DNA of 64,000 nucleotides. Origin: Marsupella aquatica (Eukaryota > Plantae > Marchantiophyta). Location: positions 2,803,801 through 2,867,800 of the forward strand of contig OZ316891.1 in assembly GCA_973895155.1 (NCBI GenBank). The letters run 5' to 3'. Positions 34,172-56,652 of the stretch are shown one piece after another; the stretch's first letter is position 1; each line of letters starts with the position of its first letter. The notes beneath the pieces were generated by a model. It was not told the DNA's origin and ran no database searches. It saw nothing but the letters and a program-made list of their open reading frames with translations. Position numbers and translations under genes: made by a program.

Positions 34172-36611
34172 GAGATGGTGCCCCAATTATTGTAAAACAT
34201 AAATGGCCGTATCTCGATCGTTTGACCTCCGCTTGTGCATCATTTACGAAGCCGTGATCAGGAAGAGCAGGGTTACCCAAGTATTTTTCAGAAGTGAATT
34301 CTGAGAAAATTATATTTTTGACAATTGTTAGGGGCCCCTCTTTTTGCAGCGGACGGTAGTGGCAATCAGGAGGATGGTGATCGATGAACATGGTTGTTCA
34401 TATCTTAGGGATGGTCTGTGACAAATTGACAGACCCAATGCCTTTGGACACCCATACCTCAAGGTGGAAACAATAACATGCTATCCAAGTGAAAGGTGAC
34501 ATTTTTTGTTTTAATTAGGTGATTATTCCAAAAAGAGAGTTAAAGTATCAAAATCATAAAATTTTAAAATTTTAAAGTTTTTATAAGGCCCTTTAAGCAA
34601 ATTTAAGTTAGTATAAGCTCAAATGGGTAAGGATACCATTGGAAGACGTCAAGGCTACTCTGGTTTTCACATATTGGACGTCCATGGCGGCCGGCAGTAG
34701 GGCGCGAGCTTCGACCCTCAGTGCTCACTTGTTAGACCACCATTCGAGCTCATTTCAATTGCTATAGGAGCGCAACTGCCTAGAGAATGTTCACCCCGAT
34801 TCTGAACTGCCATTGATGAGACGTTGAGGAGTATTGGGTCATCGATGCTCTCTGATTTCTTAGAATTGAAGAAATTGCAATTTCAAGAGCTTCACTTGAT
34901 TAAAGCTCCTTCATTTCTATCTCTTTTCAGTTCATTCCTTCTCCCATAGTAACGCAGCTACCTTAGATCCCTGAGATTTCATTCTTGAGCCTCCATGCTT
35001 AACCATTTTTAGGAGGAGAGCTCTAGAGCCTTCTCAGATTTTCTGACACTAGAAGAAACCGGCCCATTCTGAGACCCTGCCTTAAGTGACTCTAATGAGA
35101 CCTTGCAAAATTTGTGACTCCTAGGTTTTGGGTGTCATTATAGTTACAAGTTGTGGACTGAGTTTTGGAGAATTCTTGGGAAGTCATTTCTATAACTATT
35201 GGGGAAGTTGCAACTATAACTAAGTTCAGCCAACAAGAATGAAGTTGTATAAGTGACTCCCTCTACAATAGAGCGTTATATATGTAAGAGAGCCTTAGGG
35301 TTTAACACCACAATCTAACCACATTTGACCCCGCCCAACACATACCATTTAGGATATATCCTAATTTTCTTAGTTGTCAATGGGACTAAAGGAGATGCCC
35401 TCGGGATATTGTGTGAGTACGCAACTCTACAAGGTAAGTAAAGGTCCTTGGTCAATGTCAATGCTAACAGATCTCAAATATATACTCTACATTAGAGTAG
35501 ACTGAATTACAACATATGTATGCCACAAGTTTACAAGTGTTACAACATAACAAAATAATCCCAACTAGCTAGGGTCCCACAATGGCATGCATGTAATATT
35601 AATTGGACTCATTTTTGTGTCTAAATGGGTACATTTGAAGTTATCTCCTTGGTTATCTCTAACTCTCACATATGCAAGGGCAGGTTATTTTTACTTATTG
35701 CACGCCATGCCATGCATACATACCGTCATGTACCCCCTCCACACATTGTTCCATCTAGATTCCTTTAATTAAAGGTTCAAAATCACCAAGAACTGGGAAT
35801 GCAGCTGGAACCTCCATGTACTTGGCATGTCTACATGTTATAATTAGACATATCTGATAATGGCACCCCACACACTATGCTCATGGAATGAGCATAAGAA
35901 CTTGTGACAGTCCTTACCTTAATTAATCAAGCAAGGATCTGACGGTCGTAAACTTAATCAAAGGATGATCTGACGGTTGAAAACAAATATGGGCACATTA
36001 AACCAGGTTTAGGGTTTAATGGATTCCTTCACGCCAACTCCCATTGCGCCTTGGATTCCTTTGGATTTGCGGACGAGGAGCTGATCGCGCATTCTTTGCG
36101 AGGGAAAAAAGGGGGCAGTTTGTCGATCACTAAGGCTGAAGCTGCATTGACAAATTGCAATCCCGACTGCAATGGGAGTAGTAGGAGGCAAGAAGAGCGA
36201 GTTTAGGGTGTTGCATAGACAAAACAGAATGTGAGTCGTAGGCAACATTCAGCCATTGTATGTGTTTAGCATTGATCATAGGCACTGTGGGAGGCACTGC
36301 AGGAGGCGTTTGCCACTGCGCAAGGCACTGTAGGAGGCACTTGTTCCTTCAAGCTGGGAGAGTCAATTTGACGTTCAGCTGCAACCTGGGATCGAGAACC
36401 AGGAGCTTCTCATTGCGGTTTGGTGTGCATTTGGACTGTTCTTGCAAAGTGGGACTCCAGGCCTGGAGACATTGCATTGATCGCCTTTGGATGTACATTG
36501 CAGTCCGACTAGGAGGCTTTCAAGTGGAGCTGGGTTGGAAGTGAGTTGAAGATTGAGTTGCCATCACATTGCAATAGCGGGGGATTGTTGCTCAGCTTCA
36601 CATACTGCTAC

Positions 36612-38162
36612 GGATTACTACGCAGCTTCAGTTTGAGCGGCTTGGTGCTGCATCAGCCCATGTAAGGCTGCAATCCCCTATCTTTGCTATGTGACCTCGC
36701 GGCTGCAAGTTTGGTTGACTTCTCTGTGCTGTGAAGCTGTTTTTGACTCAGGTTCCGGCCAAGTTTCACCAGCGCAAATTTTTCTAAACATGAGTGTGGG
36801 CTACAACTGGTGAGGTGGAAGGGATAAGAAAATGCGCTACCGTCATTGACAACATCTCAACCTTTTACAGTGAGCGCTATTGACATTCGGCCAGCTGTAA
36901 GTGTATTTCAAGCTTGACTTTAACTTGCCATCTGCATGAACCGGCTTGCAATAGATGTTGTAGCTTTTGCTTAGCTGCATTCACCTCCCAAGATGCCCCG
37001 TGACATCCAGGTTTGCACAATGAGATAATAAGGCTGAAATGATAAGGTAGTGATTGCCAATGGATAAAAAGCTTTATGAGAGTTGCTTCAACGTTCAGCT
37101 GCAAACTAGGATTAGGAACCAGGAACTTGTCGCGGCAGTCCAGCTTGTTTACTTGGAGCCGGAGCTGGAGTCAAGTTTCACATGTTTCTTGTTTAGTGAC
37201 AGAGTACTTCTGAGAAATGTGACAGCCCCTGTGAGAGCTTTCGGCACCAGTGAGGTAAAGGGTGTTCTTACTCATGCAATAGTCACTTTGACCTTCTGAG
37301 TTTCAGCAAATTGAGTTTCAAGTGCGGGCACTGAGAGTTGACCTGTTTGAGCTGGGGTCACTGAGAGTTGAGCTCTTTGAGCTACGGTTACAGAGAGTTG
37401 AGCTGTTTGAGATGCGGTCTCATAAGTGAACTAGATCCTCCCCCGTGTAAACGTCTAGCATAGTCACATGTCCAAGCTTTGCTTTTGACTCTGAATATAT
37501 TCACTGTCAACCATTGAAGGAGCTACGTGCATGAATTGTCTACTTATTGGGTTGTTTAGGGATTCAATATACAAAAATGACAACTTGAGTAAGGCAGTCT
37601 ACGGAGGCGCGAAAGAGTCGCGAGGAGTCGAGTTCAGCTACGGCAGTATTCACTTCAGTTGTCTCAATGTGGTTGGCGTGAGCTGCAGGTGAGCTTAGCT
37701 GTGTGCACATTTCATGTAAGTCAGGTGGTCGGTGTTTTAGGCATTGCGGAACTTGATTGACCACCCCATGGCTAAGGTTTAAGGTGCAGACTACAACAAA
37801 CATGTGTTGTTGCTGAAAGTGTTGGTGGTGAGCGACAACTGGTATTGTTTCAGCTAAAGGGAGCACATTGGAGCTTGTGTATCCATGACCTACGACCGAT
37901 TGCGGTTGCCTGCTGTTACAATTGCCGAATCAATCACGCACCCAATCTTGTGGGCAGACACAACTTTGCGGGAGTGTTGAAGGTTTAGGGTGAGCAACAG
38001 CGGAGAGCTCATTGCTTGGTGGCAGGGTTGAAGGTGGATGATCGGGCTGCAAGGCCAACCGGGGACTTGTTTTGCATTGAGCGATTGCTGCGGATTGCTA
38101 CGCAGCTTCAGTTAGGGCGGCTTGGTGCTACATCGGCACAGGTAAGGCTGCAATCCCCTATC
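36612..38162. repeat. Internal direct duplications in the CACTA leader region
   Basis: A ~70 bp segment GGATT.CTACGCAGCTTCAGTT...GTAAGGCTGCAATCCCCTATC occurs at 36612 and 38092. A 30 bp unit C.GAGAGTTGA.CT.TTTGAG occurs three times at ~37331-37420. Confidence 0.75.
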
Positions 38163-38716
38163 GACGCGGACTCACCTCGTGACTGCAAGTATAGTTGTCT
38201 AGGTGATGTATGCATTGCGTGTTTAGGGTCTAGGTGACATCGCTGCTAAGCAAAATTTGTGAGCTGCCTAGGTCCATTGCCGAATGTTGCTTCCTTTAAA
38301 TTACCTGGTGCCTGCTGTTACAATCGCCTGCTCAATCATGCACCCAATCGCCTGGAGCTCATTTGCCTGGAGCTTCATCCGTCAGATTCAAACTGTTATT
38401 GCTGCTCTGCCCTTTTGCCATGGGTTGCCGGCCTACCGGATGCTATCAACAGATTAAGAACAAGTCATATCCTAAGTCCCGGTGTTGCAGTGATGTCCCC
38501 GACCCTAAGATGCTTTCCAAACTCATCTTTCTTGTTTCCTGTTGCTGCTGATGTATGTATGTTCTCCCCTATTTTTGCTTACAGATTGGTCTCTCCACAC
38601 TTCTTGCTTGACATGATTGTTTTGCTCCTCCCTGTATCAGAACATGCCTTGTGCCCGGCGGTGGGGTGGGGGGGTGAACAGACGACCTTAAGGTTCACTA
38701 CATTTCTAGGAACTGT

Positions 38717-38877
38717 GCATCTTTCAGCTGATTTTAGCCGCAAGTTCCCTTGCTTTCCCCTGTTTTTGCTAAGATCCCTCCCACTAATCACATGCATCTT
38801 TCAGCTGATTTTAGCCGCAAGTTCCCTTGCTTTCCCCTGCTTTTGCTAAGATCCCTCCCCACTAATGACATGCATCC
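38717..38877. repeat. Two ~76 bp tandem copies
   Basis: GCATCTTTCAGCTGATTTTAGCCGCAAGTTCCCTTGCTTTCCCCTG.TTTTGCTAAGATCCC..CCCACTAAT.ACAT occurs twice. Confidence 0.9.
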
Positions 38878-40066
38878 TTTACTTTTCTCGGTGGCCCGTG
38901 CGCCTGCCTTCCTACTTTCGTTCTTATGGACTCTCCTTAGGTTTTCATTCACCTGGTTTTGGACTTTTTGCTCCGGTGGAATCTGTCTTGACAACTTGTG
39001 TTTGTTCTAATTGTTAATATCTCAAGAGGGTCGTCAACTAAGCTGAAAGGAGTCAAAGCTAACTACAAGCTAGCAAAATAATACAGAGAATGCTCCCAAG
39101 TCGAGTCAGGAGGAAGTTACTAAAACTAGACCTTCACAACTCTCGAAACTGGAAAGTGAAATTCAGCGTGAGACACGTAGCTGAAGGCCACAAGGATAAC
39201 TATATGGCCACGCTGTCCCCCATTCAAGTCCAAAGTCCTCTTCAGATTGTCTGAACTCCTATTGAATGTATTGAATAATTATTTCATCACAGAAATTTTC
39301 AGAACAAACACGGAAGCACCAGGGGGCTGAGGATTAGGTATTGAGGCTGAAGACATTGAGGTCATAAACTAGGTGTGGTTCGGGTGACAATGTTAGCAAC
39401 TGATGCTTCTTCAGGGGAACTTCCCATGTGCAGTTTATCCACACATGATTGACTTTGGTTCTTGCTGTTTTTCTTTTGGTGTACTCTTGAGTTTGGTGTC
39501 ACTCTATCCTTTCCTGTAGCCTCGAAATAGGAACACACCTGCTTAGTGGTCCCCAATCGCCCAATGATTTATAATGACTGTGTCTAGGTGATGTATGCAT
39601 TGCGTGTTCATTCCAGAAGAATGAATATGTACACTTTGCACAAACCTGGACAGATTTTGAATGTTATTTATCTGAGTTTCTGTTTGTGAGCTCTGACTTG
39701 GAGCCTTAACATTTGTGTTTCTGTGGGGCTGAGCAGAGTTTGTTCAGTCTAGAAGCTGCTGTACTGAAGTGATCAGCCTCCGGCTTGGAGGTGAATCTTC
39801 AATTTTTTGTGGATCCGAGTGACTTCTGTCCAACTGAGTTTTGCTTTGTCGGGACGATTGTGTTTGGCTAAGATGCTAGATTGTGGCTTGTCTTCTTGCT
39901 TCCAGCTTGTGTATTTTCAATTAATAGAAGTTGGGAACGAAGTGATAATTGAATTTCCTTATATTAAGCATCTTCACCTAGAAACTCAATACATAAACTC
40001 CAGGATTCCCTCGGGACATAAAATGAGCCAAATTGTCTCAAAATTGGGAACCTGCACCCGCACTAC

Positions 40067-40409
40067 TCAAACAATTGTGTTGGGCTTGGTGGCCTTGTAA
40101 GTCTTCTTTAGCTTTCGCAATGGAGGTTGAATCTTGCAGTACGTCAAGGGGAACTTGATCTTTGAATCATGGAACTGCTTGGTACTTTCTCGCTTGCACA
40201 GAGAGACAGGGACTGTCGTAGTCTTCATGATCTAGATGCAAGGGAACCGAACTCTATGACAAGAAGCCATCTCATCATACATCTGCTCTGCAGCTCCGTT
40301 TCTTGTGGTATCACAATATTCCTTGTACATGTTGTGATAACCTGTACGACTCTGATACGTGGACCCAGATACCGAAGTTCTTAATTGTGGTGGGCTTCTT
40401 TTTGAAGAT
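40067..40409 (-). pseudogene. RPL18A: Captured last exon of 60S ribosomal protein L18a (eL20), decayed
   Basis: Reads [15 protein letters not shown], then a frameshift, then [70 protein letters not shown]...[15 protein letters not shown]. One frameshift and one internal stop. Confidence 0.9.
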
Positions 40410-41417
40410 TTGGTAGACACATTATTCAGCATTTGCTAACTTCGAAACTAGAAGGGTAACACATTAAACAACAGAGAAACTCACAACATCCTCCTTTGGT
40501 CCTTCAGAGTCTGTACTTTGATTCTGAAGTTTGACTGAGTTTTTGTTTACTAAAAGAATGTGACTGTGTAAGAGTTCCGTTTGGCAGTGGATTGGTTGAA
40601 GCACTTCATGCTAGTGTGTTGTCCACAGCTCTTCAACCAGCTTTCGTCTTCCTTGTCTTTCACCACTTACGATGACATCAATTCAGCTAAGACCATAGAA
40701 GGTTCCAAAGCATCTAACTTGTAAAATCGCATTCTGTTACATCAAGGACTAAGGTGTTGGGTGCCAAAGGAGACAGCACAACAAACACGCTGAAAAGACT
40801 TCAGGACTGGGTTCAACAAGGTAGTGAAGGTGCTTAGAGCCATAGTAAGTATGCATTCTGTATCTTTCTCTATTGATGTGAGCTTGTGCATAATGGGAGT
40901 TGTAGTTGGCAAGAGTTCCAAATATGAATAGATCCAGAAGTATGTGATCATGTACTTGCTCTATAAAGTTCTGAAGATATAAGCATTTTCTGTTAGACCA
41001 GGCAACTTGGGAGTTGGTAAGTGTCACCTGCATCTGAGGGGCTACACCGGGGCATCAGTGGAGGTTCACTTGCACAACACGACAACCAGTGAATTTTCTC
41101 TCTGCTGCAACCTGCAAGGTGAGACTTTCGGTCTTTCTGGATGAAAAAACAGGAGTTTAATATGATTGATATACATGTCCGTCGAGAATATGGGTTTATC
41201 ACCAAGCTCTTTGTCTTAGGAAACTCATAAACTCAGAATCAAATATGTACTATGCACGTTTCATGCTATGTGTATACTATGACCTGTAGTTGGAACCAAG
41301 ACAATGAGTGGGAACTGATTAGTTTAGGTGGTTGCTGTTGGCGAGGCAAGTCGACCTCCTGCTCACCTTGCTCATCAAAGGACGTGAACAGAGGACATCA
41401 CAACGAAAGCAACACTT

Positions 41418-41867
41418 ATGGTGAGGACCCGCAACGCTGAACATGTGCGACTTGCACGCAAGGCAGAGATGTTGCGCCTTGAGTATGTCAGACTTGGGAT
41501 CCTTCCAGCCCAGTCTGCATGGTACTTTGAGTACCCTGTTGTTTCTAGGAACAACTACAGCCGGCCTCTACCTGCTTCAGTACCCTTCCCGACATCCTTG
41601 GTATTTGTGTCTCTTGTACATGACCCGCCACAAATTAGGTGCCAAGGGTGTGTACACAGTTGCCAATATGACTGTCCTGCCTGTAGGGCTTCTGGCCCAG
41701 AATTGGATGACCGTTCTCTTGGATGCCGATTTTTGCACAGAGCACAATGTATCATCTGGAACCACTTGCCATCCTGCAGTGTGCCTGGTGATGTCACTTG
41801 TCCTGCCCTCCCAGACCCCACCACCGGTGACTTTGGTGTCTACACATGTTTGGATCACATGCTCTAG
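41418..41867 (+). CDS. Cys/His-rich atypical PHD-like zinc-finger protein (149 aa), CACTA cargo
   Basis: ATG-started intact ORF with CQGC..CxxxCPAC...GC-x7-CIIWNHLPSC...YTCLDH, which fits a C4-H-C-C-x2-H PHD-like spacing with a WxH motif. Confidence 0.55.
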   Translation: MVRTRNAEHVRLARKAEMLRLEYVRLGILPAQSAWYFEYPVVSRNNYSRPLPASVPFPTSLVFVSLVHDPPQIRCQGCVHSCQYDCPACRASGPELDDRSLGCRFLHRAQCIIWNHLPSCSVPGDVTCPALPDPTTGDFGVYTCLDHML

Positions 41868-42564
41868 AGGACCACTTGTCACACCGCATGCACAGACCAG
41901 ATACCATTGACCTATAGCTTAACACTCTGACTTCAACACAGAGGATATTTACTTAAAATTTTGATGTATGAGCAATTTTGGGTCCAGGGTTTAGGGTCAA
42001 CAGTACATAACTTATATCCTATTATGCCTGCACTAAGCAAAATATCCTAATTTAAGAGGCTAGCAAACTCGCATAAAAGTCTCTATTGAAAGACTGCTTT
42101 CATGACTGCTTTAACCTGTGAACATTGCAACGTTGAATGAATTAATGGGCCATGTGATAATATGCAAAATGATTTATGCCTCACTTATTTGTCTCAGCCA
42201 CTATCATAACCTATTTAGGATGTATAAATTTCAACCCTTATGACACTGCTTCATACCAATCCTCTTCGAAGAATGCCTGTTTTACATGTCACGACTATTG
42301 TATGTGATTCAAATGCATGAAATGTTGTTGCAGATCTCCTTTGGTGAATCATAGCCACAATTAAAATTGAGGTGTTGGTGGAGAAATTGTATTAGGGGAT
42401 CAGTTTTGTGTGTGGGCTCAACATACCAAAAGTATGTGTGCTCTGCATCCTTGTGTGGCCATTCCAATTCATTGCAGTAGCAAATGCCTTTGTACCTTAA
42501 ATGCTAAATATATTTTACTTTCTGTGCAGTCTGCTAAATTGTAGAGTCTATCTCATGCGCAGGC

Positions 42565-43245
42565 ATGGCACGGCCTAAAATTCAAGCCAAAAAGCGTGTG
42601 ACAGAGGTGAGAAACACAGGTGTACTTGGGGCAGATGCTACTAACTTCTCTGCAAGTCAGATTTTCCAGAAGGCAGCTCATTGTTGTGCCATTTGTGACG
42701 ATGGTGGGGGCCTGGTCATTTGTGAGGGCCCTTGCATGAGGCATTTCCACCTCAACCCGGAGTCTGACCTTGCTGCAGAAAACAACTGTCCAGGGGTGGG
42801 CCTCCCGTCAACACACCAGGGAGACTGGATGTGCACTGATTGTTTGGAGAAGCAGGCTAAGTGTGCACAGTGTGGGAAGTTGGGGTCCTATGAGGGCTCT
42901 GTTGATGCTGCAGCAAATGTTAGGAAATGTCCAGACCGTTTTTGTGTGAGATTTTTCTGTTTTGAGTGTTTGCCTGCTCATGCCACAGCTTGCCCACTTC
43001 ATAGGTGCAAGGCATGTGGTGAGCATGATGATGACTACTGGACTGACATAGTCCACTGTGCTAGGTGTCCCACTATGTGGCACTATCATTGCCTGAAAGA
43101 TCATCAAGCAGAGGGTTATGCTTGTGACAGAGAAATCTATGATCACTCTGCACATGGTGTTGATCGATGGATATTTTATTGTCATCGCCATGCCATTGAT
43201 CCTACCTCGCGCACTCCTGTGAGAGATCACATATCTTGGCTGTGA
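42565..43245 (+). CDS. Stand-alone EDM2-like triple-PHD finger protein (226 aa), CACTA cargo
   Basis: Intact ORF with CAICDDGG.LVICEGPCMRHFH, WMCTDC...AKCAQCGKLGS, CPLHRCKAC, CARCP..WHYHCL and FYCHRHAIDP...TPVRDH. This is colinear with the EDM2 PHD region as I recall it (CAICDNGG..CEGSCLRSFH...LGSS...CPLHKC...CRRCPKSYH...YC..HEID...TPVRDH). Confidence 0.85.
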   Translation: MARPKIQAKKRVTEVRNTGVLGADATNFSASQIFQKAAHCCAICDDGGGLVICEGPCMRHFHLNPESDLAAENNCPGVGLPSTHQGDWMCTDCLEKQAKCAQCGKLGSYEGSVDAAANVRKCPDRFCVRFFCFECLPAHATACPLHRCKACGEHDDDYWTDIVHCARCPTMWHYHCLKDHQAEGYACDREIYDHSAHGVDRWIFYCHRHAIDPTSRTPVRDHISWL

Positions 43246-43837
43246 AGCTGAACATTGTACATGCACAGTGCACCTGATGTGGATGTACTATTTTTTGAGA
43301 TTGCAGAGATTCCAATTTTGAAAAGGAGTTGGGTAGGCGAGTTTATATAGGCAGCACTTATCTTGTGCTCTGGCGTCAGTGGCTGGGTACATGCCTATAC
43401 AAACTTATCCTTACAAGCCTTCTTGGAAGTATTTAGGCTGAGTGGTCATTTTCATAAACACTTTCATCACACTGCTAAATTAAAACAGGACTTCTAAATT
43501 GTAAGCGTATAAATTATCAGGCATGCAATTAATCAAATTGCCCTATAAGTTTGTCATTGAATGTATCCTCCTTTACAACAAAATATGTATGTGCCATGAC
43601 AAGTTGGTTGCACTTCATTTCACCACGGATATGGATTTTGTAGTATATATTCAAACAATGTCCTGCATCCGTGCAGGTGCCTAGTACGTATTGTTCACAT
43701 ATCCCTTGTACCTATCAAAATCGGACCTGAGCACCAGTGGGCCAGATCAACTCAAAAAGCAGGAATTTTGTTGTCCTTGTATTGTCAGGTGAACCCATTC
43801 TTCCAAAATTCACTGTCATCACGTAGGGTGTGTGTAC

Positions 43838-44710
43838 ATGGAGCCTGGTAAACGTAGAAAGTGTGACCACCCAGCAGTGTTTACAGGGGTCAGAGCGATT
43901 TTGGTCCATGGCCAGCATGGGTTGACCAAAGTGCATTGGCCAACTGTACAGAAACGATTCTCTGAGCTCCATGGCACTGTAGTTCAAGACATCACTCCAG
44001 AGACTACACATGTTGTTGCAGGGACATGGCTATCAGTGATAAAGAAGTGGTCATGGTCCTACATGAATTCTGCAATTACTAAGCAAGGCCTAAAAGTAGT
44101 TGAGGCCTCTTGGATCACAGATTCCATAGCACATAAGATTGTACAGGATACTGAGCAATATGAGTTGTGGGAGGATGAAGAAGCTACTGCATCAGCTTGG
44201 GCTGAACAAGAAGTCTGGGAAGCAAAGGCACGGCTTGCTGATCTCCAATATGGACCTGTACTCAACAAAGGACAGAGCTCTACAAGGCTGAAGAGTATGT
44301 TGGCTGAGGAGACGAAGCAACCAACCCCCATTCTGAAAGGGCTGAGCATGGTATTTGTGGAGGCGGGAATTGGAGAGGTTAAGTGCAAAGTGTACAAGTC
44401 CACAGTGCTTGACCTAGGTGGGACAGTGGAGGAGAATATAACAGAGGACACCACTCATGTCATTACTAAGTCATATCCCAAAGCCTGCCGCAAGTTTGGG
44501 AAGGGAGACATTCGCTTTTATGTCATGTCCCATAATGTGTTTGTGGTTTCATATGCTTGGCTTGTGGAATCAGTAGCAGCTGGGAAGCGTCAAAACCCAA
44601 TGGACTATGATCTTTTTGAGGCCTGGCCACGGAAGGGTCAGGATCCTTACAGAGAGGACTATGAGACAACAAGTGAGGAATGGGTCATTAGCGATTCTGA
44701 ATCAGAGTGA
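43838..44710 (+). CDS. Tandem BRCT-domain protein (290 aa), CACTA cargo
   Basis: Two BRCT repeats: FTGVRAILV...LHGTV...TTHVV...VVEASWITDSI...YEL and LKGLSMVFVE.G...LGGTVEE...TTHVI...KFGK...VVSYAWLVESV.AG...YDL, followed by an acidic tail. Confidence 0.85.
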   Translation: MEPGKRRKCDHPAVFTGVRAILVHGQHGLTKVHWPTVQKRFSELHGTVVQDITPETTHVVAGTWLSVIKKWSWSYMNSAITKQGLKVVEASWITDSIAHKIVQDTEQYELWEDEEATASAWAEQEVWEAKARLADLQYGPVLNKGQSSTRLKSMLAEETKQPTPILKGLSMVFVEAGIGEVKCKVYKSTVLDLGGTVEENITEDTTHVITKSYPKACRKFGKGDIRFYVMSHNVFVVSYAWLVESVAAGKRQNPMDYDLFEAWPRKGQDPYREDYETTSEEWVISDSESE

Positions 44711-45143
44711 GGAGTAGTAGCATCAGTTTGGACACAAGTTTTTTTGTATAAATCAGATCATTGAAATAAATGTGATCTTTGAACTAATGTACCTTGTTAT
44801 GGTTGGTGGCAGTTGGGCTTATTTTACTGTTGGCGGATTGTTGTTTCCTGCTGCCTGGGGGTGTCACTGTAAACGTACATGCAGAGGCGGTACATTTGAG
44901 GACAGCGGAGGAGGTGGTGACACCCTCCAACATTTAGAAATTTTGTGTCATTCACTTGACAATAGGTACACTACTTGCGAACCTGTTTTTTTCTTTTGGG
45001 GTGGTTTAGGGTTTGTGAGAATTTAGTACACGTTATGTTAACTCTTTTGGCAGATACAGTCAGGGATATATGGAACACAAATACCACCATTAGGCATCCT
45101 TGTTCACTGCTGTCCATGACTGCAGAGCTCCCAGCCTGTTACA

Positions 45144-48100
45144 ATGCACCCTGGTCACCACCCTCCCCAGACCCAGCCCAGGGCACAGGCACTGCCTTTG
45201 CATCATCCCACAAGGATATCACGCCATGATAATAAGCTTTGGCAGCGTGAAAGGTTACGAACCAGACTTTCAGGAGCCAGTAGGATGAGATGTCCTTGTG
45301 CAATCTGCCAAGGATCCCGTACCAGGGGTCTGAATGAGGTTTGGCGGCATATCGCGGTTCATGGAAGAGATCCACGACATCGAGTTTGGAATGATCCTGC
45401 AGAGGAAGATTCTTCCGACGAGGAGTGGAGGTTAGAATTTGATGCTGCCAATGCTGCAAGACGGGCAAGTAAGGTTCTGCCTGGTGCATTTGAAAATGTT
45501 GTAGCTGGTCTCTGTGGGTTGTCAGCTCTCCAACGGGATGGTGCTCAGGCAGCACCACGTGATGAAGGAATTCATGTGGAAGAGATGGTGAGAGACATCT
45601 TCCAAGACTTGGATGCATTTCATGATGGGCTGGACAATGAAGAGGATACGGTTGCAAATGCAAGTGTGCCCCCTGTCAAAGAGCCTCTTGATGAGTTTGA
45701 GATAGGGCAGGAAACCCCTGGGCATGATGGGATGTTTGGCTCTCCCCTGCAAATACAGGAAGGCAGGAAGTCTTTGTACCCCGGTAGCAAATGTTCTAAA
45801 CTGGGATTTGTCATCATGTTCCTGAACATTTGCGGCAACCACAATGTCCCCAACGTTTTGGTTTCTGAGTTGTTGGCATTCTTGCGAACAACTGTGCTAC
45901 CAGATGGTAATATTTTGCCCAAGAACATGTACGAGGCAAAAAGATGCATATCTAATCTTGGATTGAACTATGATTCGATCCATGCCTGTCCTGATGGGCA
46001 TGTTCTTTTCAGAAAGGAGTATAAAGAATCGTTGACATGCCCTAAGTGTGGGAAGCACAGGTATCGGAACTCAGGAAAGTCTATGGTTCCCGCCAAGGTA
46101 CTTCGTCATTTTCCACTCATTCCCAGACTTCAGCGGATGTTCAGAAGCCGTGCCATCTCGGAGATGATGACTTGGGCAACTGACAAGAAAAGTGATGATG
46201 GGCTACAACGACATGCTGCAGATTCAAGGCAATGGAAACTCATAGATGAGATGTATCCCGAATTTGCTGCTGAGCCGAGGAATGTCAGACTTGGGCTGTC
46301 ATTGGATGGGGTAAACCCATTTGGAGACAAGAACAACAAATTTTCATGCTGGCCTGTAACTATTTTGAATTATAACCTTCCTCCTTGGATGACTACAAAG
46401 CGATTTTTTGTTCTGATGGTCCTACTGATACCAGGGCCAGACAGTGCTGTATCTGCCAACATAGATGTGTTTCTGGCTCCCCTAGTGGAGGAATTGAGAA
46501 ATCTTTGGGAGGAAGGAGTTCTCACATATGATGTCCTACAGAGGCTTGGGAGGTTAAACCCATTCATCCTTAGAGCCATTGTCATTCTGACTATAGCTGA
46601 CTACCCAGCCCATGGGATGATATCAGGCCAAACAACAAAAGGATATTGTGCTTGTACTATCTGTGGGCGCAATGTCACCAGTGAGTACTCCAGAGCCCTG
46701 CAGAAAGTGATATACATGGGCCATCGTCGTTTTCTAAAGACAGATCACCCTTACAGAGAAAGACAGGCACTGATTGCACACTTTGGCAATGAGATTGAGC
46801 AACGTGGACCCCCGGCACGAGTGACCAAAGAGGAGATCAGGCAGTGGGGAGCACTAAGGGATGACTATATCAAACGAGGGGGCAGGGAAGATGGAGTGAG
46901 TGATCCAATAAAGCGATATGGTGTAAAAAGACTGAGCATATTGGACTTGGAGCTCAAGTACTGGAGGGTAAGCCTCTTGGAGTTGATGCTAATTGGGATA
47001 CATGTTTTGGTTCAGAGCATGTGCATTCATTTCGAAGAGAGAGACTAAACTTGAGGCATTTCCTGACGCTTTTGCATTGCAACGATGCAGGAGTTTGAGC
47101 CAAGCAAACATAACATTGATGTTATGCACATTGAAAAGAATATTTGTGAGAGTCTACTCAGATTCTTGTGTGGAGAGAAAGACACTGGTTCAGTGAGATT
47201 GGATCTTGAACAGAGGGGAATGAAACCCCATCTTTGGTTGAGGCCACATGCCCACAGAGCTGATGTGCTCTTGAAGTACCAAGCGCCCTATGTTCTGACA
47301 GACACAGAGTGGGAACTATTTGTGCAGAGGTTGAGTTCTTTGAAGGTTCCTTCAAACTATGGCAGTGCTTTCAAGAAGCATATCATGACTAGAAAGCTTG
47401 GTAGTATGAAAAGCCATGACTACCATATGTTGATGCAACAGGTGTTGCCTTTATGCCTGAGGGGCCTGTTGCAGAAGCCTGTTCGTACTGTGATCATGCG
47501 ACTCAGTGATGTGTTTCGTCGTATTTGTGTGAAGGTTTGGGATGAAACACACTTCCCACAACTGACAGAAGATGTCGCTCAGGTGCTGTGTGACCTGGAG
47601 ATTTATTTTCCTCCCGCATTTTTTGATGTCATGACCCACCTACTTGTCCATGTTGTGGAAGAGCTACACCAATTTGGGCCTGTGAGTGCTCGTTGGTTGT
47701 ACCCTTTGGAACGGTACATGAAGCTACTCAAAGGTCACGTGAGAACATATTACAAACCTGAAGCAAGCATGGCTAAAGGTTACATCAAGGATGAGACTCT
47801 GGGATTTCTGACCGAATACATAGCACAATATGAGCATGTGAAGACCAGGGTGTGGAATTCTGATGAGGAGGAAGGGGTGGTAGGTGAAGTACTGGAAGGG
47901 GCTGCAACCACAAAGAACCTGACCATATCTATGAGAGACTTGGCACATGACTTTGTATTGCACAACACTGTGGTGATGGAACCCTGGATACAGTGAGTGC
48001 ATACATGTGCTATAATCCAGTTCATGAGCTTAAATGTTGTGTTCGTGTGGTTTTCTCCTTCAGCCTGTTCATGTTTACCCAAGCTAATGCTGTGTGGTTG

Positions 48101-48875
48101 TTCGTTCAGGGAGTATGAGTCATTGAAGGCGGCCCATCCCACTGCAGGAACAACTTTTCCAGGTTTCATGGAGTGGATCAGAGTGGCAATTAGAGAGCAT
48201 CACGAGACCCACCCAGACATGGATGCAGATGTTTACCTACTGTCTAATGCCCCTAGCCTGAAAGTGAAGACTTACAAACGGATGAGAGCATATGGGAATC
48301 ACTTCCGAGTGAAGGATGGTGACAGTGCCTACAGGGTGACGAATGACTGCGGGCTCATCACTGTATTTGAGCAACAGAGCCACAATCACAACAGGGCCTG
48401 GATGGAGATGGGATATGTGGGAGAATTAGTTGACATATGGGCTCTGGACTATGGGGCGGTGTCCAGTCCTGTGATTCTTATGAAAGGTTCATGGGTGCGG
48501 CAGGATTGGCTTGCTAACAGGGCTACCATGAAGAGAGACAACGACGGTTTCTTGCTGGCCAATTTCAGAGGGAAATTGCCCGAATGGTCTGAGCCATTTG
48601 TGTTTCCTAGTCAGGTGGAGCAAGCTTTCTTCCTGGATGTGGAAGACTCCCCAGGTTGGCGTGTAGTGTGTCATAAACAGGCCAGGCAACGCCGGATGGA
48701 AGGATCAAACCTTGAGTTTCATTTACACTCTCATAGTGCCTTTGATCGTCGGCGTTCAGACCAAGTGCCTGTAGTTCATGATAGCGGGGACTTCATTCCT
48801 GTGACAAGGGTAGATGCATTTGCTGAAGGAGGCGAATTCAGAGATGCAGATGCCAACAGTGTGCCTGTGCCATGA
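45144..48875 (+). CDS. CACTA TnpD/TNP2-type DDE transposase (~1160 aa, 3 exons), apparently intact
   Basis: Exons 45144-46967, 47091-47992 and 48110-48875 are phase-compatible. Motifs: N-terminal CPCAIC..HIAVHG, IHACP..CPKCG, LRHFPLIPRLQRMF, LSLDGVNPF, IADYPAHG, HNIDVMHIEKN, MKSHDYH, FPPAFFDVMTHL, YPLERY, EPFVFPSQVEQAFF. The exact start codon is uncertain. Confidence 0.95.
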
Positions 48876-49031
48876 GTAATGTAAATTGTTTGCATAGACA
48901 TTAGTGAGGGGAAGGATGTGTAATAAAGTAATTCTGAAGCAACACAGATGTATGGATGGATGCCTGGTGATTGTGGTTGCATTGTGTTATACGGGGTGAC
49001 CATAGATGACATGTTTTTGTGGTCCAGTAGG

Positions 49032-52000
49032 ATGGAACAGAGTGACACAGAGATGTGTGAGTATGAAAGGAAAGCTATGGAACAACGAGCATACGTGAAA
49101 GCCAAAATCGCAGAACTGGATCTGGAAAAGGATGTGGCTGAATTGTAAGGGAACGATTCTCAACTACACCCCTCCGCTGAGTTTGTGTGACATGAATAGT
49201 TCAATGTGGCACTGAAATTGTGACTGTATTCTCATATTGGAATGTCGCAGAGCCACAACATTTTCAAAGAAACAAAAGGAGTACGCAAGAAGGGTGACCA
49301 GCACTATCTCTGGGCCTGTGCGTCGGAGTGACAGGTTGAGCAAGAAGGTCGTACCTACAATGGCAGAATGTGGAGATGACATTGATGCTGCACAGGTGGG
49401 TGCAGACACTAGACAAGAAGATGCAGATGATGAGTATTTTCCAGAGGAAATGGATGAGGATGGGGGTTATGAAGATGAATACATTGCAGAGCAGCCCCAA
49501 AAGAAACATGTAAGTAGTTTTCCCAACAAGGTTTTGAGTTAAAAACTCTTGTTTAGAGGTTTCATATGTTCAGTACTACACATATGTACCTTGCTTAGTT
49601 CCTGACATTGTAGTTGGTGATGTGATGCAGCGTCCTGCCAGTTCTGTTTTGCCTTCGAAGCCTGTGCATGCACCATACCAGCAGGGGGGGCTGACCTCTG
49701 ATCAAGGTTGGCGAGGTGGTAGTAGTGGTAGATCCCAGGCTGGTGCCCAATACTATGGCAGGGGGCAAGCTCTAGGTTATGCCCGTGGTAGAGGCAGAGC
49801 AGGTCCAAACCCACAATCTCGTGGGTATGGACGTCCACCTCAACCGTGGGGATGTGAGTATATATCTATATGCCAGTTCTTTGTGAAGGCATGGCACTCC
49901 TGAATTTCAGACTGCATATCAATTTTTGACATTGTTTGGGATGTATTGGATTCAGACAACATGAAATTCTGTCCACCTGCCATTGCATGCAGATTCTGCC
50001 CAACCTGATTGGGCAAATGCTAGTAATGATCAGTTCCAATGTCCACAAGGACAGACATGGGTTGAACCAGGTTGGGAGGATGGTGGTGGGTCGTGGAATG
50101 AACAAGGTTGGGAAGGTGGTGAAGGTAATTGGCAGGGATATCAAAATACAGTACCTACAAACGCTGGAAGAGGAGCAGGTAATGTCTGATCTTGTCAGCA
50201 ATGGAAGAACTCATTATATGTGGAGTCCATTCACGTGGGGGGGACTCTGCACATGTATAATGATAGAAAATGTATGTGTGCAGGTTGGACAGTTGAACCA
50301 TCGACTCAAGTATTCACTAATGCCCCTATGCAGATGCAGCACGGAAGGGGGACAGGTATGTCGGTGAATGTTCAGTTGTTTTCCTACAGTTTGTACTTAG
50401 TTTTCAGTACATATGTTTGCACACACATACCTAGAAAGTGACATCATCCGGCCCCTGTACTAGGCTGGACAGGTGGTCCAGGGTCGCAACAATTTTAGAG
50501 TGCAGTCCCTGCACAGGCATCTACAGGCAGAGCTACAGGTATGTATGTTTGAAGAATTTTTCTTGAAGTGAAGCATTGAATGTTGCCGTCATCCATTCTG
50601 CTATATGTAGTTCTCAAGCATGAATGGCATTGTATTTTCCCAGGTGGCTTCAGAACCCCAGGTAGGGTGAATGAAGGGGTGGCCAATACAACGCCCAGTA
50701 CTACCGAGAGCAGTGCACGAGGGGAGGTGACAAAGAAAGGGAACGTAAAGTTGAATGAGAGACAATGGGTGGATGCTGAGTGTCCTCGCAAGAACCGATG
50801 GCATGCTGATTTGAAAGCTGAAGTATTGCGTTGGTTAGATGTGAGTGTTATTAATTTTAAAAAACAGCATCCAAAAGATTGGAAGACTGTATGTGAAAAT
50901 GTTGCTGCCAAATGGAATTATGTGGGCAGTGATGATGGCGTGGACATAGGTTGCCTAGAGAGTACAGCAGGTAAAATTATCAAGCAAGAGAGGTGGAGAA
51001 TGCATAAGGCTTGGAAGGAAGGTGGGGAGAAGCCAGATATGCCTCCACCAGCCAGTTGTGATGATAAAGTGTGGGCAAGGTTAGTAGCTTATTTTGTAAC
51101 AGATGCTTCAAAAAAGAAGAGTTCACAGATGACCGAGGCCAGGTTGAGTGTTCAGAACCCTAATCTGACAGGAAGGACCGGCACTGCACCGACAGCTAAA
51201 CGTTTGGTAAGAATGAATGGCCTAGCTATGTAATTTATGCTACACTATGTACTATTTTTTAGTGTAAACCCATACATGTAAACTTTGTTTTTTAGTGTAC
51301 GTTCCCTGAATATTGATCGATAACTTGTGTTTGCCATGCATGTGCAGAAAGCCCAATTGGGGCAAAGCCCTTCAAAAGAAGAGTTGAGGGCTGAAATTGT
51401 GAACACCTGGGCTCAAGAGGGTGCATCTGAATCCTCCAAGCATGTAAGTTATATGAGTTCTGATTGGTAATTGAATGACCTGCGTTGAATTTCAGGTGTA
51501 CACTGTATATAACATTGATTGTGCATATATTGCCCAACATTTCATATGGAGTGATTGAACCTATACCCCTGTGTCATGTAGGGAGGTGGATCTTCACTTA
51601 CAGAGATAAGTGGTCGTTTGAAGGCTGTCGAAACATGTCTTCCAGAGATCAATGAACGTTTGAATTCATTGACTGACTTGTTCCATGTGAACTTCAAGAC
51701 ATTAATGGAAGCTGTTGTGTCGGTGAGAGATAAAATTGATTCCAATTCTGCAGGAGTTCCACCATCACCACTTGAGGTGGCAAAGTTGATGCACTCTTCT
51801 GGCATGCCAACGACATGTAGGCTTGAAGGTAAGGCCTTTACAACTGTGTGGGATATGATTATTAAATGTATAGTTTGAATTGACATTGTTTGTTGAATGT
51901 GTTATTTTCAGTAACATATATTGTGGTTGTTGTGTCCATAGAGAATAAGACAGGTGCTACAGAGAAGAAGTATGAGAACCTGGCAAATACTCGCTGTAAT

Positions 52001-52738
52001 TTAGAGGCAACAAAGTTGCAGTCTGTACAAGCAACTTGTTTGACAGAGGGCAGTCAACCATGTTTGGATGAGGATGACATTGGCAAGGGAGTGGATGATA
52101 TCAATGTTGGGGCAAATGAGGATATCAGCAAGCATGACAATGATACCATTGAGCCAGATTCATGCTATGTAGATCTTGACTCCATTGCAGAGATAAATGA
52201 TTTGCAGAATGTATCATTCTCAATGACAGGTGTGCCTCTTGTTGAGATAAATCCAACCAAAGAGCTAGTTGGTATGACACTCCCAGGTGATGAACCTGCT
52301 ACTGTGACAGTCCTAACAGAGGAACCTACTGAGCCTAGCTTCACTACTGTGAAGAGAGGAAGCATGCGCACACGAAGCAAGTCTGCTGGTGGGAGCAGAG
52401 TCACGTCAAAGGTTTCATACAAACCTCCAAGAACAGTGCTGGCAGAAAGATCTAAGGTGGAAGTGGGGAAAGCACCTAATGCTGAGGGACAAAGTGGCTT
52501 GTTAGTTGTTGATGAGAGTGGAACACGAGTAGGATTTGCCAGAGTGCAGGTTGGTTCCACAACGTTCCATGGCAAGAGGATTCCCCCAGGTTATTCAGTA
52601 GTGTTAGTCACATTACTAGTGAAACCTAAAGCTGTCCTTCCCATTCCAAACACAAATGATGATCCTCCTCAAAAGACACTTGGAGATGCTGCAGGTTCTT
52701 TGGTATTATGGCCAAGCAAGTTCATAGAGGATCCATAA
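49032..52738 (+). CDS. CACTA TnpA/TNP1-like protein (Ptta/En/Spm-type domain), 10 exons, ~876 aa, with one in-frame stop in exon 6
   Basis: Exons 49032-49144, 49251-49509, 49631-49853, 49993-50178, 50284-50355, 50464-50538, 50644-51206, 51348-51443, 51582-51828 and 51942-52738 are all phase-compatible. Motifs: EYERK...L.L start, W..LV.YF.T...KKKS...EAR..V.NP..TGR, and C-terminal HGKRIPPGY..V...LP.P..DD....LGDA.G..VLWP. TAG at 50496-50498. Confidence 0.8.
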
Positions 52739-53593
52739 CAATGTCATGCCATTATTTGTTTGTAGTGTGAGTCATGTTATGTAGATTTTAGATGTCAAGA
52801 AGCAGTACAAGAATCATGTCCTCTTGGAGATTCATAGTATCATGCATGTGCTTTCAGTTATCTCATCCTACAGTCATCAATTATGAGTTCCTGTTTTGTC
52901 TAAATTACATTGATCACATTGTAAACTATTCCATTGGAATTCAAATGATCTTCATTTTTTAGCAAGATTGTGATTGTGTTTAATTCTTATGAATGTTTTA
53001 TGTAGGATCTGCTTATATGATGCTTTGTTTCATGTGGATGTCATTCATGCTATGTTCATTTCTTGTATTCAATGTGTTATATTTCTAAAGTTAGAACATC
53101 AGGTTTCTATGTATTGTAATGTCGAGTGCTCTCTCTTCTTATGAACTGTCCCTCTGTGTTCATTAGTCATGGTTATAACTTGCATGTGAACCTTATTAGT
53201 TATAAACATGAGTATATAGAGTCCCAAATGGTTCTGTTGTGTGACGCGGGCCAGGGTCTCCATTGGTCTCTCCTGTGACACTAAATAGTCACACGCTAGT
53301 CGTTGTTGAATGCGGGTAAGTCATGTATGTGACTTACGATGTGACTCGCTGAAGTCATATTGCAGTCACGTCGAAACAAGGCTAGACTCCACAATAAAGT
53401 CACAGATCAGTCACAAATGGGTATCAAGCAAGTTGCAAAGCCCAGTATCAATAGTGACTTCCATTTTTTGGTCTCAACTTTTGCAACTCCAAGGGTCACA
53501 GCGTGGGTCAAGTCACGTTGAGTCACAATGAAGTCACATGAGCCAAAATGAGTCATATATTGCGGTCTCAGTTCACCTCGGATTCTTCTAGTG

Positions 53594-54074: not shown

Positions 54075-54174
54075 ATAAAATCCAATCAAATATCCCAAAT
54101 AACCCCTAGCCTATCAACCCAACCCAGCCTTAACATCCTATCCACCACATCCTGTAAATTGGTTTGTCTTGTCA

Positions 54175-56494: not shown

Positions 56495-56652
56495 AGCCAG
56501 TGACATGTAAGGGAGCCAGTTACATGCAAGGGGCTCATATAAAGGAGCCAATGACATGTAAGGGGCTGATGTAAAGGAGCCAATGACATGTAAGGGAGCC
56601 AGTGACATGCAAGGGGCTCATGTAAAGGAGCCAGTGACATGTAAGGGGCTCA
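56495..56652. repeat. Minisatellite built from GAGCCA(G/A)TGACATG(T/C)AAGG units
   Basis: Six copies of AGCCARTKACATGYAAGGG, interspersed with GCTCATGTAAAGG-like spacers. Confidence 0.9.

What the first reader, a model, noticed from the sequence alone, without database searches (positions are those of the whole stretch)
42565..43245. Stand-alone EDM2-like triple-PHD module encoded by a transposon
Seen: an intronless 226 aa ORF consisting of a short basic N-terminus (RPKIQAKKR, NLS-like) plus three PHD-type fingers ending TPVRDH. Established: Arabidopsis EDM2 uses this region to read H3K9me2-containing marks and, with ASI1/IBM2 and AIPP1/EDM3, promotes full-length transcription through intronic heterochromatin. 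Inference: a reader-only version could mask H3K9me2, act as a decoy or recruiter of that complex, or tether the transposase to heterochromatin.
Basis: partly seen in the sequence, partly recalled or inferred. Interest (0 to 1): 0.87.

Follow-up and report, generated by a model that had tools for sequence, protein, structure and literature searches.

The report
Transposon-borne EDM2-type histone reader gene
A cut-and-paste (CACTA) transposon in a leafy-liverwort genome carries its own small gene for the three-finger "reading head" of the plant EDM2 protein family, which likely binds histone tails and would let the element read or mask chromatin silencing marks.

Summary
42565..43245 (+) is an intact 226-aa ORF. 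It has a disordered basic N-terminus followed by three colinear NSD/EDM2-type PHD fingers, and it ends TPVRDHISWL.

Its closest long relatives are proteins that sources name ENHANCED DOWNY MILDEW 2. Its closest relatives overall are about a dozen unnamed stand-alone proteins of 187-245 aa. These share the same end, and most share the MAR.. start. They form one strongly supported clade on a long stem.

The ORF lies inside an 18.5-kb CACTA element (35047..53593), upstream of a tandem-BRCT ORF, a Transposase_21/DUF4218/DUF4216 transposase and a weak TnpA-like ORF. The block is a high-copy repeat family in public runs labelled as several organisms. The host is a leafy liverwort: the neighbouring Noc2 gene is 87% identical to that of Calypogeia fissa.

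A second, truncated and diverged PHD copy abuts the right terminus. dN/dS between the two copies is 0.14-0.30.

Function is inferred, not shown. I read it as a selected transposon accessory gene: a reader-only H3-tail binder that likely competes with host EDM2-type proteins. No RNA evidence, binding test or target-site duplication was obtained. I found no description of such an element in four literature searches.

The parts
35047..53593 (+). CACTA (En/Spm-type) transposon, 18,547 bp, carrying all parts below except the last
   Evidence: Both ends read CACTAGAAGAA (first 11 of 11 bases identical, 22 of 30 in all); this is the best pair in the TIR scan. GTGAC/GTCAC subterminal motifs occur 13 times in the first 350 bp of the right end and 3 times in the first 210 bp of the left end, against 1.4 per 700 bp in the window. 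Summed contig depth in run X1 is 2000-7750 from 39912 to 53855 and falls to 222 beyond; 35264-37919 is low at about 230. No matching 3-bp target-site duplication: TGA versus CTC.
35047..35076 (+). left terminal inverted repeat (candidate)
   Evidence: CACTAGAAGAAACCGG...CTGAGACC. This is the weaker of the two ends.
42565..43245 (+). stand-alone PHD-module gene (226 aa), the finding
42565..42642 (+). basic N-terminal tail (aa 1-26, MARPKIQAKKR...), predicted disordered
   Evidence: pLDDT below 50 for residues 1-26. MARPK or a close variant starts several relatives.
42679..42843 (+). PHD finger I (aa 39-93), Cys4-His-Cys3
42850..43002 (+). PHD finger II (aa 96-146)
   Evidence: PHD_NSD hit. The family has Cys132 where EDM2-type proteins have His (FFC/FYC versus FYH), and it lacks their 14-20-residue insert.
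43006..43191 (+). variant PHD finger III (aa 148-209), followed by the conserved TPxRDHISW(L/I) end
43838..44710 (+). tandem-BRCT ORF (290 aa), second accessory gene
   Evidence: BRCT E 2e-13 in two stretches, BRCT_2 E 2e-11. Lies in the same high-depth block. An acceptor-like cag lies 50 nt before its ATG, and AATAAA lies about 55 nt after its stop.
45120..48875 (+). CACTA transposase (TnpD-like); three open stretches in one frame
   Evidence: Transposase_21 E 1.8e-70, DUF4218 E 4.8e-28, DUF4216 E 1.3e-4. The stop at 47994 lies inside a GTGAGT donor, so the breaks may be introns.
50580..52738 (+). TnpA-like region (two ORFs)
   Evidence: Weak Transposase_24 hit, E 1.5e-4, below the cut-off.
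53564..53593 (-). right terminal inverted repeat
   Evidence: Read on the minus strand: CACTAGAAGAATCCGAGG...CTGAGACC, followed by dense GTGACT repeats.
53594..54072 (-). second, diverged PHD-gene fragment just outside the right terminus (matches aa 56-219 of the finding; lacks both start and end)
   Evidence: 56% amino-acid identity, E 5e-58. Homology stops at the base next to the CACTA terminus. dN/dS against the finding is 0.135-0.30.

Best explanation
The 226-aa ORF is an accessory gene of an 18.5-kb CACTA transposon of a leafy liverwort and encodes nothing but the three-finger PHD module of the EDM2 family, which is predicted to bind histone H3 tails and would likely act as a reader-only competitor of host EDM2-type proteins at the element's own silenced copies.

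Shown: the ORF, its domain make-up, its place inside the element, the repeat status of the block, a family of stand-alone relatives with the same end (most with the same start), and purifying selection between diverged copies.

Inferred: (1) the module binds H3 tails, as EDM2 and NSD modules do; (2) because it lacks the RFD-like N-terminus and every C-terminal domain of host EDM2-type proteins, it can occupy marks but cannot do what those domains do, so it acts by occupancy or competition; (3) the benefit goes to the element, as anti-silencing or as help in transcribing its long genes through its own heterochromatin.

Origin: most likely the 3' part of a liverwort RFD+PHD gene. Those host proteins also end 2-4 residues after the RDH..FP motif.
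For: ORF and fingers.

EDM2 kinship: phmmer hits at E 1e-20 to 1e-15 cover query residues 40-224 in 1000-1400-aa proteins. Of the 16 long hits scanned, 9 have Pfam DNMT1-RFD in front of the same three PHD models. Source names include EDM2.

Stand-alone family: 5 of 5 word-search hits are 217-245 aa and cover 97-100% of the query at 37-82% identity. All 5 contain RDHISW: four end at RDHISWL or RDHISWI, and P0004 runs 9 residues further. All 7 hits at E<=1e-30 are 166-245 aa. The 12 short rows form one clade at 100/99 support (99).

Transposon. On the 1.3 kb around the ORF, 109, 641, 293 and 120 contigs were laid in four runs, spread over identity classes from 99+ to under 90. The whole block has high summed depth.

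Selection: dN/dS 0.135 (ML), 0.17 (NG86) and 0.30 (LWL85) over 159 codons between the two window copies; differences by codon position are 51/41/82. All 12 listed indels among copies lie outside the ORF, which is 52% of the laid stretch.

Background: EDM2 binds H3K9me2 chromatin and recruits ASI1/IBM2 and EDM3/AIPP1 (passages of PMC7529245).

Host proteins that end right after the module.
Against: No expression evidence: no listed holder is on record as RNA.

No binding test of any kind.

Among near-identical copies the signal of selection is weak. Of the 23 listed substitutions in the ORF, 9 are synonymous against 0.21 expected (p 0.037), and codon positions are flat at 7/8/8. A further 100 rows were not shown.

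The element has no matching target-site duplication. Its left end is weaker than its right, and 35264-37919 is low-copy.

Which part of EDM2 contacts its partners is unknown to me (PMC5584460 is not held), so 'reader-only means competitor' is an assumption. The EDM2 pathway is characterised in Arabidopsis, and I found nothing on it in liverworts.

Genomic context of the other family members could not be read, so it is not shown that they too are transposon-borne.
Confidence: 0.4

Rival explanations
1. Targeting or tethering factor. The PHD protein, alone or with the neighbouring tandem-BRCT protein, binds the element's transposase or TnpA-like protein and steers excision or integration to chromatin that carries particular H3 marks, much as retrotransposon integrases use chromodomains (that comparison is recalled).
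For: Two chromatin/repair-type accessory ORFs (PHD, then BRCT) sit side by side, in the same orientation and directly upstream of the transposase, inside one high-copy block. The module's fold matches H3-tail binders.
Against: No evidence of any contact between these proteins; no complex prediction was run. No integration-site data. The module has no extra domain that could serve as an adaptor, apart from a 26-residue disordered basic tail.
Confidence: 0.2
2. Not a stand-alone protein. The ORF is one exon of an alternatively spliced element transcript, as with En/Spm TnpA/TnpD. The functional product would be a PHD-BRCT or PHD-transposase fusion in which the stop is spliced out.
For: Acceptor-like ...cag sites lie shortly before both the PHD and BRCT start codons, which suggests a shared upstream leader. 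The last codons CTG TGA AG contain GTGAAG, a possible donor that would remove the stop; metagenome copy L001 has CTG TAG GC at the same place. All element genes are on one strand.
Against: The stop directly after ISW(L/I) is kept in 4 of 5 word-search relatives, down to 37% identity; P0004 runs 9 residues further. Some end in Ile, where no GT arises. Host liverwort homologues also end at this point. The 'longer' word search found no fused form (weak evidence).
Confidence: 0.15
3. Neutral passenger. A host gene fragment picked up by the element (transduplication) that is copied along with it but does nothing.
For: CACTA elements are known to capture host fragments (recalled). Several database relatives are frameshifted or truncated: P0009, P0086, P0116, P0014. 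Near-identical copies show little codon-position bias.
Against: dN/dS is 0.135-0.30 between diverged copies. The ORF is intact, and zinc ligands are kept down to 37% identity, with the end kept in all 5 and the MAR.. start in most. Indels cluster just outside the ORF and none of the 12 listed is inside. The long stem and deep subclades of the family show long persistence as an open frame.
Confidence: 0.08
4. A host gene (domesticated or original) that merely lies between transposon remnants.
For: Triticeae have host-annotated short EDM2-like proteins of 252-339 aa, and Marchantia has a 280-aa one (P0047). So short forms can be host genes.
Against: The ORF and its flanks are a multi-version repeat in four runs: 109-641 contigs per 1.3 kb across all identity classes. 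It lies between matching CACTA ends together with the transposase. A second diverged copy lies 10 kb away.
Confidence: 0.04

Closest known systems
Arabidopsis EDM2 and its plant orthologues (PHD module, about residues 220-430)
   Same: The same three colinear fingers (PHD-1st_NSD, PHD_NSD, PHDvar_NSD) and the same closing motif TPxR(D/N)H. phmmer alignments span query residues 40-224.
   Different: No RFD-like N-terminus and no C-terminal ELP/methyltransferase-like or proline-rich parts. 226 aa against about 1300. Cys replaces His at one finger-II ligand, and the finger-II insert is missing. Sits on a separate long branch. Carried by a transposon.
Liverwort-only RFD+PHD proteins (Calypogeia fissa P0015/P0031, Marchantia polymorpha P0020/P0047, M. 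paleacea P0030, Riccia sorocarpa P0019)
   Same: Same host lineage. Four of the six (P0015, P0031, P0030, P0047) end 2-4 residues after RDH(L/V)(R/K)FP, just as the transposon protein ends at RDHISWL. They are joined to the transposon clade in the best tree.
   Different: That join has only 56/79 support: not shown, not rejected. Five of the six are 619-768 aa with an RFD-like N-terminus by my own profile; Pfam's model did not reach E 0.001 in P0015 or P0020. They are annotated as host genes.
NSD1/2/3 PHD fingers (PHD1-3 and PHD5-C5HCH)
VANC anti-silencing proteins of VANDAL (Mutator) transposons in Arabidopsis (PMC5735166 and PMC10398659; titles and abstracts seen)
   Same: A DNA-transposon accessory protein, separate from the transposase, that serves the element against epigenetic silencing. 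This is what I propose the protein works like.
   Different: No sequence relation was tested or expected. VANC binds DNA motifs of its own element, whereas this protein is a histone-reader module. The superfamily (CACTA) and host (liverwort) are also different.
Short host EDM2-like proteins of Triticeae (P0040 cluster, 252-339 aa)
   Same: Little more than the PHD module; named EDM2(-like) by sources.
   Different: They nest inside the angiosperm EDM2 crown (100/100 with P0045 and P0069), far from the transposon clade. They keep the FYH ligand and a long insert.

Membership tests
EDM2 family (full-length) | Three colinear atypical PHD fingers of NSD type, ending TPxR(D/N)H | tested here: met
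   Alignments to EDM2-named proteins cover residues 40-224.
EDM2 family (full-length) | N-terminal DNMT1-RFD-like domain | tested here: not met
   No such hit in the ORF, and only 38 residues precede finger I. It is present in 9 of 16 long relatives scanned.
EDM2 family (full-length) | C-terminal ELP / N6-adenine-methyltransferase-like domain and proline-rich tail (as listed in PMC7529245) | tested here: not met
   The protein stops 17 residues after the last zinc ligand.
EDM2 family (full-length) | Binds H3K9me2-bearing chromatin; works with ASI1/IBM2 and EDM3/AIPP1 | not testable with these tools
   Needs peptide arrays, ChIP and co-IP.
Pfam NSD-type PHD models (PF23011, PF22908, PF23004) | Score at or above each model's gathering cut-off | tested here: not met
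   23.9 against 27, 17.9 against 23.9, and 23.2 against 27 bits. The order and spacing still fit, and relatives P0004, P0005 and P0012 pass single models.
CACTA / En-Spm transposons | Transposase with Transposase_21 (tnp2) plus DUF4218/DUF4216 | tested here: met
   E 1.8e-70, 4.8e-28 and 1.3e-4.
CACTA / En-Spm transposons | Terminal inverted repeats starting CACTA | tested here: met
   CACTAGAAGAA at 35047 and, reverse-complemented, at 53593; 22 of 30 bases match.
CACTA / En-Spm transposons | Subterminal short repeats | tested here: met
   GTGAC/GTCAC occurs 13 times in 350 bp at the right end and 3 times in 210 bp at the left, against a background of 1.4 per 700 bp.
CACTA / En-Spm transposons | 3-bp target-site duplication | tested here: not met
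   TGA on the left, CTC on the right. The right flank is itself a fragment of a related element's gene, so this may be a nested or rearranged site.
CACTA / En-Spm transposons | Second, TnpA-like gene | tested here: inconclusive
   Transposase_24 E 1.5e-4, 22.3 bits against a cut-off of 28.7.
CACTA / En-Spm transposons | Repeated in the genome | tested here: met
   Hundreds of contigs of graded identity in four runs. No whole genome was available for a copy count.
VANC-type anti-silencing factors | Loss of DNA methylation or silencing at the factor's own element copies when it is expressed | not testable with these tools
   Works-like comparison only.

The most novel reading that the evidence does not exclude
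A CACTA transposon lineage of liverworts has taken the heterochromatin-reading head of the EDM2 family and keeps it under selection as a reader-only protein that blinds or hijacks the host's reading of silencing marks at the element's copies. That would be a transposon-encoded anti-silencing factor acting at the level of histone-mark reading, paired with a BRCT protein. Its conserved N-terminus (after Met removal: ARPK.., ARTK.. in relative P0009) may even mimic the histone H3 tail and gate its own first finger or decoy host enzymes.
Probability: 0.2. Interest if true: 0.85.

Novelty: new variant of a known kind. Interest (0 to 1): 0.62.

Why it matters
Plant DNA transposons are known to carry accessory genes, and one class (VANC) is known to defeat silencing. 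A transposon that owns a histone-mark reader from the very family the host uses to deal with heterochromatin inside genes would be a new move in the host-transposon conflict.

It would also give a natural "minimal" EDM2-type module for working out what these atypical PHD fingers read.

The case is directly testable: the protein is small, the liverwort Marchantia is transformable, and the element family is abundant enough for a copy-by-copy census.

Tried and rejected
- **Own genome:** none is held, so there is no copy census, no empty-site test and no count of intact ORFs.
- **Earlier findings of the scan:** three look-ups returned nothing.
- **Word search among longer proteins:** 340 candidates, none scored. 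The tool itself calls this weak evidence.
- **RNA evidence:** no RNA holder is listed among 11 runs, so expression and splicing stay open.
- **Target-site duplication:** not found.
- **Nested-insertion idea:** if the element had inserted into the second PHD copy, the rest of that gene should lie left of 35047. Neither the sequence there nor tblastn/blastn shows it.
- **Alternative terminus at 56927 (CACTAGTAGAAG):** rejected. It is followed by a different tandem repeat, not GTGACT repeats.
- **Codon-position test on variants among near-identical copies:** flat at 7/8/8, with only a weak excess of synonymous changes; 100 variant rows were not shown.
- **Metagenome scan for family loci:** 147 pattern matches gave one confirmed locus, L001 (1867 bp). 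It is too short for context and has no in-frame ATG before residue 28 of the match.
- **PDB by sequence:** only E 0.0034 or weaker.
- **H3-mimic tail docking in cis:** the AF2 model leaves residues 1-26 unstructured, so it gives no support. Part of the family has FTSR(P/K)K further inside the protein rather than at the start.
- **Papers:** PMC5584460 (the ASI1-AIPP1-EDM2 complex) is not held. Searches 'CACTA+EDM2+PHD', 'CACTA/PHD finger/BRCT', 'EDM2-like+transposon-encoded' and 'liverwort+CACTA+PHD' found no paper on a transposon-borne EDM2-type reader (passages checked). Subscription journals are mostly not covered.
- **Complex prediction:** not run. I claim no specific protein contact, and neighbourhood alone was not reason enough.

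Full report
**1. The observation**

The window has an ATG-to-TGA ORF of 226 aa at exactly 42565..43245 on the + strand. It starts MARPKIQAKKR and ends TPVRDHISWL.

Pfam finds three colinear matches:
- PHD-1st_NSD at residues 39-93 (E 4.6e-5)
- PHD_NSD at 96-140 (E 0.0039)
- PHDvar_NSD at 148-180 (E 7e-5)

All three are below the curated cut-offs, but they fall in the order in which NSD and EDM2 proteins carry them. Reading the Cys/His spacing as three eight-ligand fingers (my reading), 23 of the 24 ligand positions are invariant or at least 90% conserved in an alignment of 11 family members.

**2. Relatives**

A word-indexed search among proteins of similar length found 5 hits among 123 candidates. 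All are 217-245 aa, cover 97-100% of the query at 37-82% identity, and contain RDHISW. Four end at RDHISWL or RDHISWI, and P0004 runs 9 residues further. Four begin MAR.., and P0004 has MARP at an internal Met. The same search among longer proteins scored nothing (weak evidence).

A full HMMER scan of 1.84 billion cluster representatives gave 249 proteins at E<=1e-3, 116 at E<=1e-10 and 7 at E<=1e-30. All seven are 166-245 aa. Below them come many 1000-1400-aa proteins that match at about residues 220-430.

I scanned 16 such long hits with Pfam. Nine carry DNMT1-RFD at the N-terminus in front of the same PHD models. Sources name members ENHANCED DOWNY MILDEW 2 or EDM2-like, from Aristolochia, Neltuma, Selaginella, Physcomitrium and Triticeae.

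By sequence, PDB holds only weak matches: AIRE PHD1 at E 0.0034 and NSD2 661-794 at E 0.011. The language-model atlas puts the protein next to Streptophyta clusters in which 98% of members carry PHD_NSD (score 0.92). So 'EDM2-like' is right, and NSD is the more distant relative.

**3. Phylogeny**

Tree 1 had 127 rows. These were the 130 of 163 session sequences whose match spans query residues <=50 to >=205, minus 4 isoforms that I dropped, plus the truncated second window copy. The 12 short stand-alone rows lie on one side of a branch with SH-aLRT 99.

Tree 2 was a careful run on 49 rows: all 12 short rows plus 37 that I picked for taxonomic spread. The short clade has 100/99 support and a stem of 1.9 changes per column. 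Rooted on four chlorophyte sequences, it falls inside the streptophyte side (99/96), in an unresolved fork.

The best tree joins the short clade to a clade of six liverwort proteins, from Calypogeia fissa, Marchantia polymorpha, M. paleacea and Riccia sorocarpa. Support is only 56/79, so this is neither shown nor rejected. Four of those host proteins end 2-4 residues after RDH(L/V)(R/K)FP, the same point at which the transposon protein ends. That makes capture of the 3' part of such a gene the most economical origin (inference).

Short host-annotated EDM2-like proteins of Triticeae are a separate case. They nest in the angiosperm crown.

**4. The transposon**

Downstream on the same strand lie:
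- a tandem-BRCT ORF at 43838..44710 (BRCT E 2e-13)
- a transposase at 45120..48875 (Transposase_21 E 1.8e-70, DUF4218 E 4.8e-28, DUF4216 E 1.3e-4)
- a weak TnpA-like ORF (Transposase_24 E 1.5e-4)

The three transposase stretches share one frame. The stop at 47994 lies inside a GTGAGT donor, so the breaks may be introns.

A scan for CACTA-type ends gave one clear pair: 35047 and 53593. Both read CACTAGAAGAA, with 22 of 30 bases matching. The right end is followed by 13 GTGAC/GTCAC motifs in 350 bp and the left by 3 in 210 bp, against 1.4 per 700 bp in the window. The flanking triplets differ (TGA and CTC), so no target-site duplication is seen.

**5. Repeat status**

No genome is held for the window. 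Public runs are, however. Nine runs hold part of 42300-45200, and five of them hold 65-82% of its sampled words under three organism labels. One of these may be the source sample.

Contigs of four runs were laid on 34600-54500. They give summed word depths in X1 of about 230 at 35264-37919, 950-1370 at 37920-39911, 2000-7750 from 39912 to 53855, and 222 beyond. In X1, 1246 contigs were spread over all identity classes.

On the 1.3 kb around the ORF, 109, 641, 293 and 120 contigs were laid. The tool warns that depth is not copy number. What I take from it is that many diverged versions of this block exist, that the block ends near 53.6 kb, and that this copy's left 2.9 kb is rarer.

**6. Selection**

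A second PHD copy lies on the minus strand at 54072..53594. It is 56% identical over residues 56-219, lacks start and end, and stops at the base next to the right CACTA terminus. Between the two copies, dN/dS is 0.135 (ML), 0.17 (NG86) and 0.30 (LWL85) over 159 codons. dS is near saturation, and differences by codon position are 51/41/82.

Among the copies in the runs, all 12 listed indels (2 more were not shown) lie outside the ORF. Ten lie within 206 bp upstream and two within 51 bp downstream, although the ORF is 52% of the laid stretch.

The 23 listed substitutions inside the ORF are 9 synonymous and 14 not. The expected synonymous share is 0.21, giving p 0.037, and codon positions are flat at 7/8/8. 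That is weak, as expected if close copies decay neutrally after insertion. None of the 14 replacements touches a Cys or His ligand.

Several database relatives are frameshifted or truncated, as in any transposon family.

**7. Structure**

AlphaFold2 on a 23-row alignment gives mean pLDDT 82.1 and pTM 0.76. Residues 1-26 are disordered.

**8. Host**

The neighbouring intronless Noc2 ORF (13819..15864) is 87% identical over its full length to a Calypogeia fissa protein and 56% to Marchantia. The window is therefore from a leafy liverwort related to Calypogeia.

**9. Mechanism**

The transposon protein keeps only the reading module. My best reading, at confidence 0.4, is a selected accessory protein that binds H3 tails at silenced chromatin. 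Lacking every other EDM2 domain, it would act by occupancy: it competes with host EDM2-type or RFD+PHD proteins to the element's benefit. In what it does, it would be an analogue of the VANC anti-silencing proteins of VANDAL elements (abstracts seen).

The rivals are:
- a targeting tether with the BRCT protein or the transposase (0.2)
- an exon of a spliced fusion protein (0.15); acceptor-like sites precede both accessory ORFs, and a possible donor overlaps the stop
- a neutral passenger (0.08)
- a host gene (0.04)

**10. Novelty**

Four literature searches, plus passage checks, found no description of a transposon-borne EDM2-type reader (80, 83, 84). The library lacks most subscription journals.

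I rate it a new variant of a known kind: a transposon accessory gene of host origin. Interest is 0.62. The anatomy and selection are solid, while function, expression and the left border remain open.

Noticed in passing
window 43838..44710 (+): A 290-aa tandem-BRCT ORF sits between the PHD gene and the transposase, in the same high-depth block. It has its own acceptor-like site before the ATG and an AATAAA after the stop, making it a second chromatin/repair-type accessory gene of the element. Only generic BRCT relatives were found (BRCA1 BRCT E about 0.007; atlas scores <=0.88).
   Followed up: partly
window 53594..54072 (-): A diverged fragment of a second PHD gene (56% aa identity) lies directly outside the right CACTA terminus and is cut at both ends. 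Contigs in runs X1 and X3 join 42729 to 54072 on opposite strands, so other copies have this gene body behind a start like that of the finding. The rest of the gene is not at the left flank, and there is no target-site duplication. How this arrangement arose is unexplained.
   Followed up: partly
window 42565..42600 and relatives P0005, P0006, P0009, P0011, P0014, P0116, P0119: The N-terminus MAR(P/T)K followed by Lys-rich residues is conserved (P0009 has MARTK at an internal Met, P0014 starts MTRTKQ). After Met removal it would resemble the histone H3 tail ARTKQ. It could be a nuclear-localisation signal or an H3 mimic. Other relatives have FTSR(P/K)K further inside the protein, which speaks against a strict N-terminal mimic.
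   Followed up: partly
window 13819..15864 (+): A 681-aa stop-to-stop frame holds a complete Noc2 domain without introns. It is 87% identical to a 676-aa Calypogeia fissa protein. It is the only clear host gene I saw in the window.
   Followed up: partly
window 35264..37919: This part of the element has roughly ten-fold lower summed contig depth than the rest. Contigs in X1 and X3 skip 36412->38085, and 36606-36720 is repeated at 38086-38200 (82%). It is a copy-specific or rare internal segment.
   Followed up: no
window 58218..59937: Inverted repeats with arms of about 220 bp (58305-58523 and 59629-59847, about 80% complementary), bracketed by a 19-nt pair at 58218 and 59919. Looks like a foldback or MITE-like element.
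   Followed up: no
window 54173..55540 and 56495..56650: Direct repeats: 54173-54398 with 54696-54921 (95%) and 54397-54611 with 55331-55540 (83%). There is also a tandem array of an approximately 40-bp unit (...cccttacatgtcactggctc...) near 56500-56650.
   Followed up: no
proteins P0015, P0031, P0019, P0020, P0030, P0047: Liverworts have a clade of their own of EDM2-like proteins. Five of the six are 619-768 aa and P0047 is 280 aa. They appear to consist of an RFD-like N-terminus plus the PHD module, with no C-terminal EDM2 domains; four of the six end right after the module. I saw no paper on them.
   Followed up: partly
L001 594..1200: A metagenome contig holds a 41%-identical family member ending HDHISWL. 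The frame is open from a stop at 591 but has no in-frame ATG until residue 83 of the open frame, and ...gctgtag lies just before it. In this subfamily the first about 27 residues may come from an upstream exon, or the copy is dead. No BRCT ORF follows within 670 bp.
   Followed up: partly
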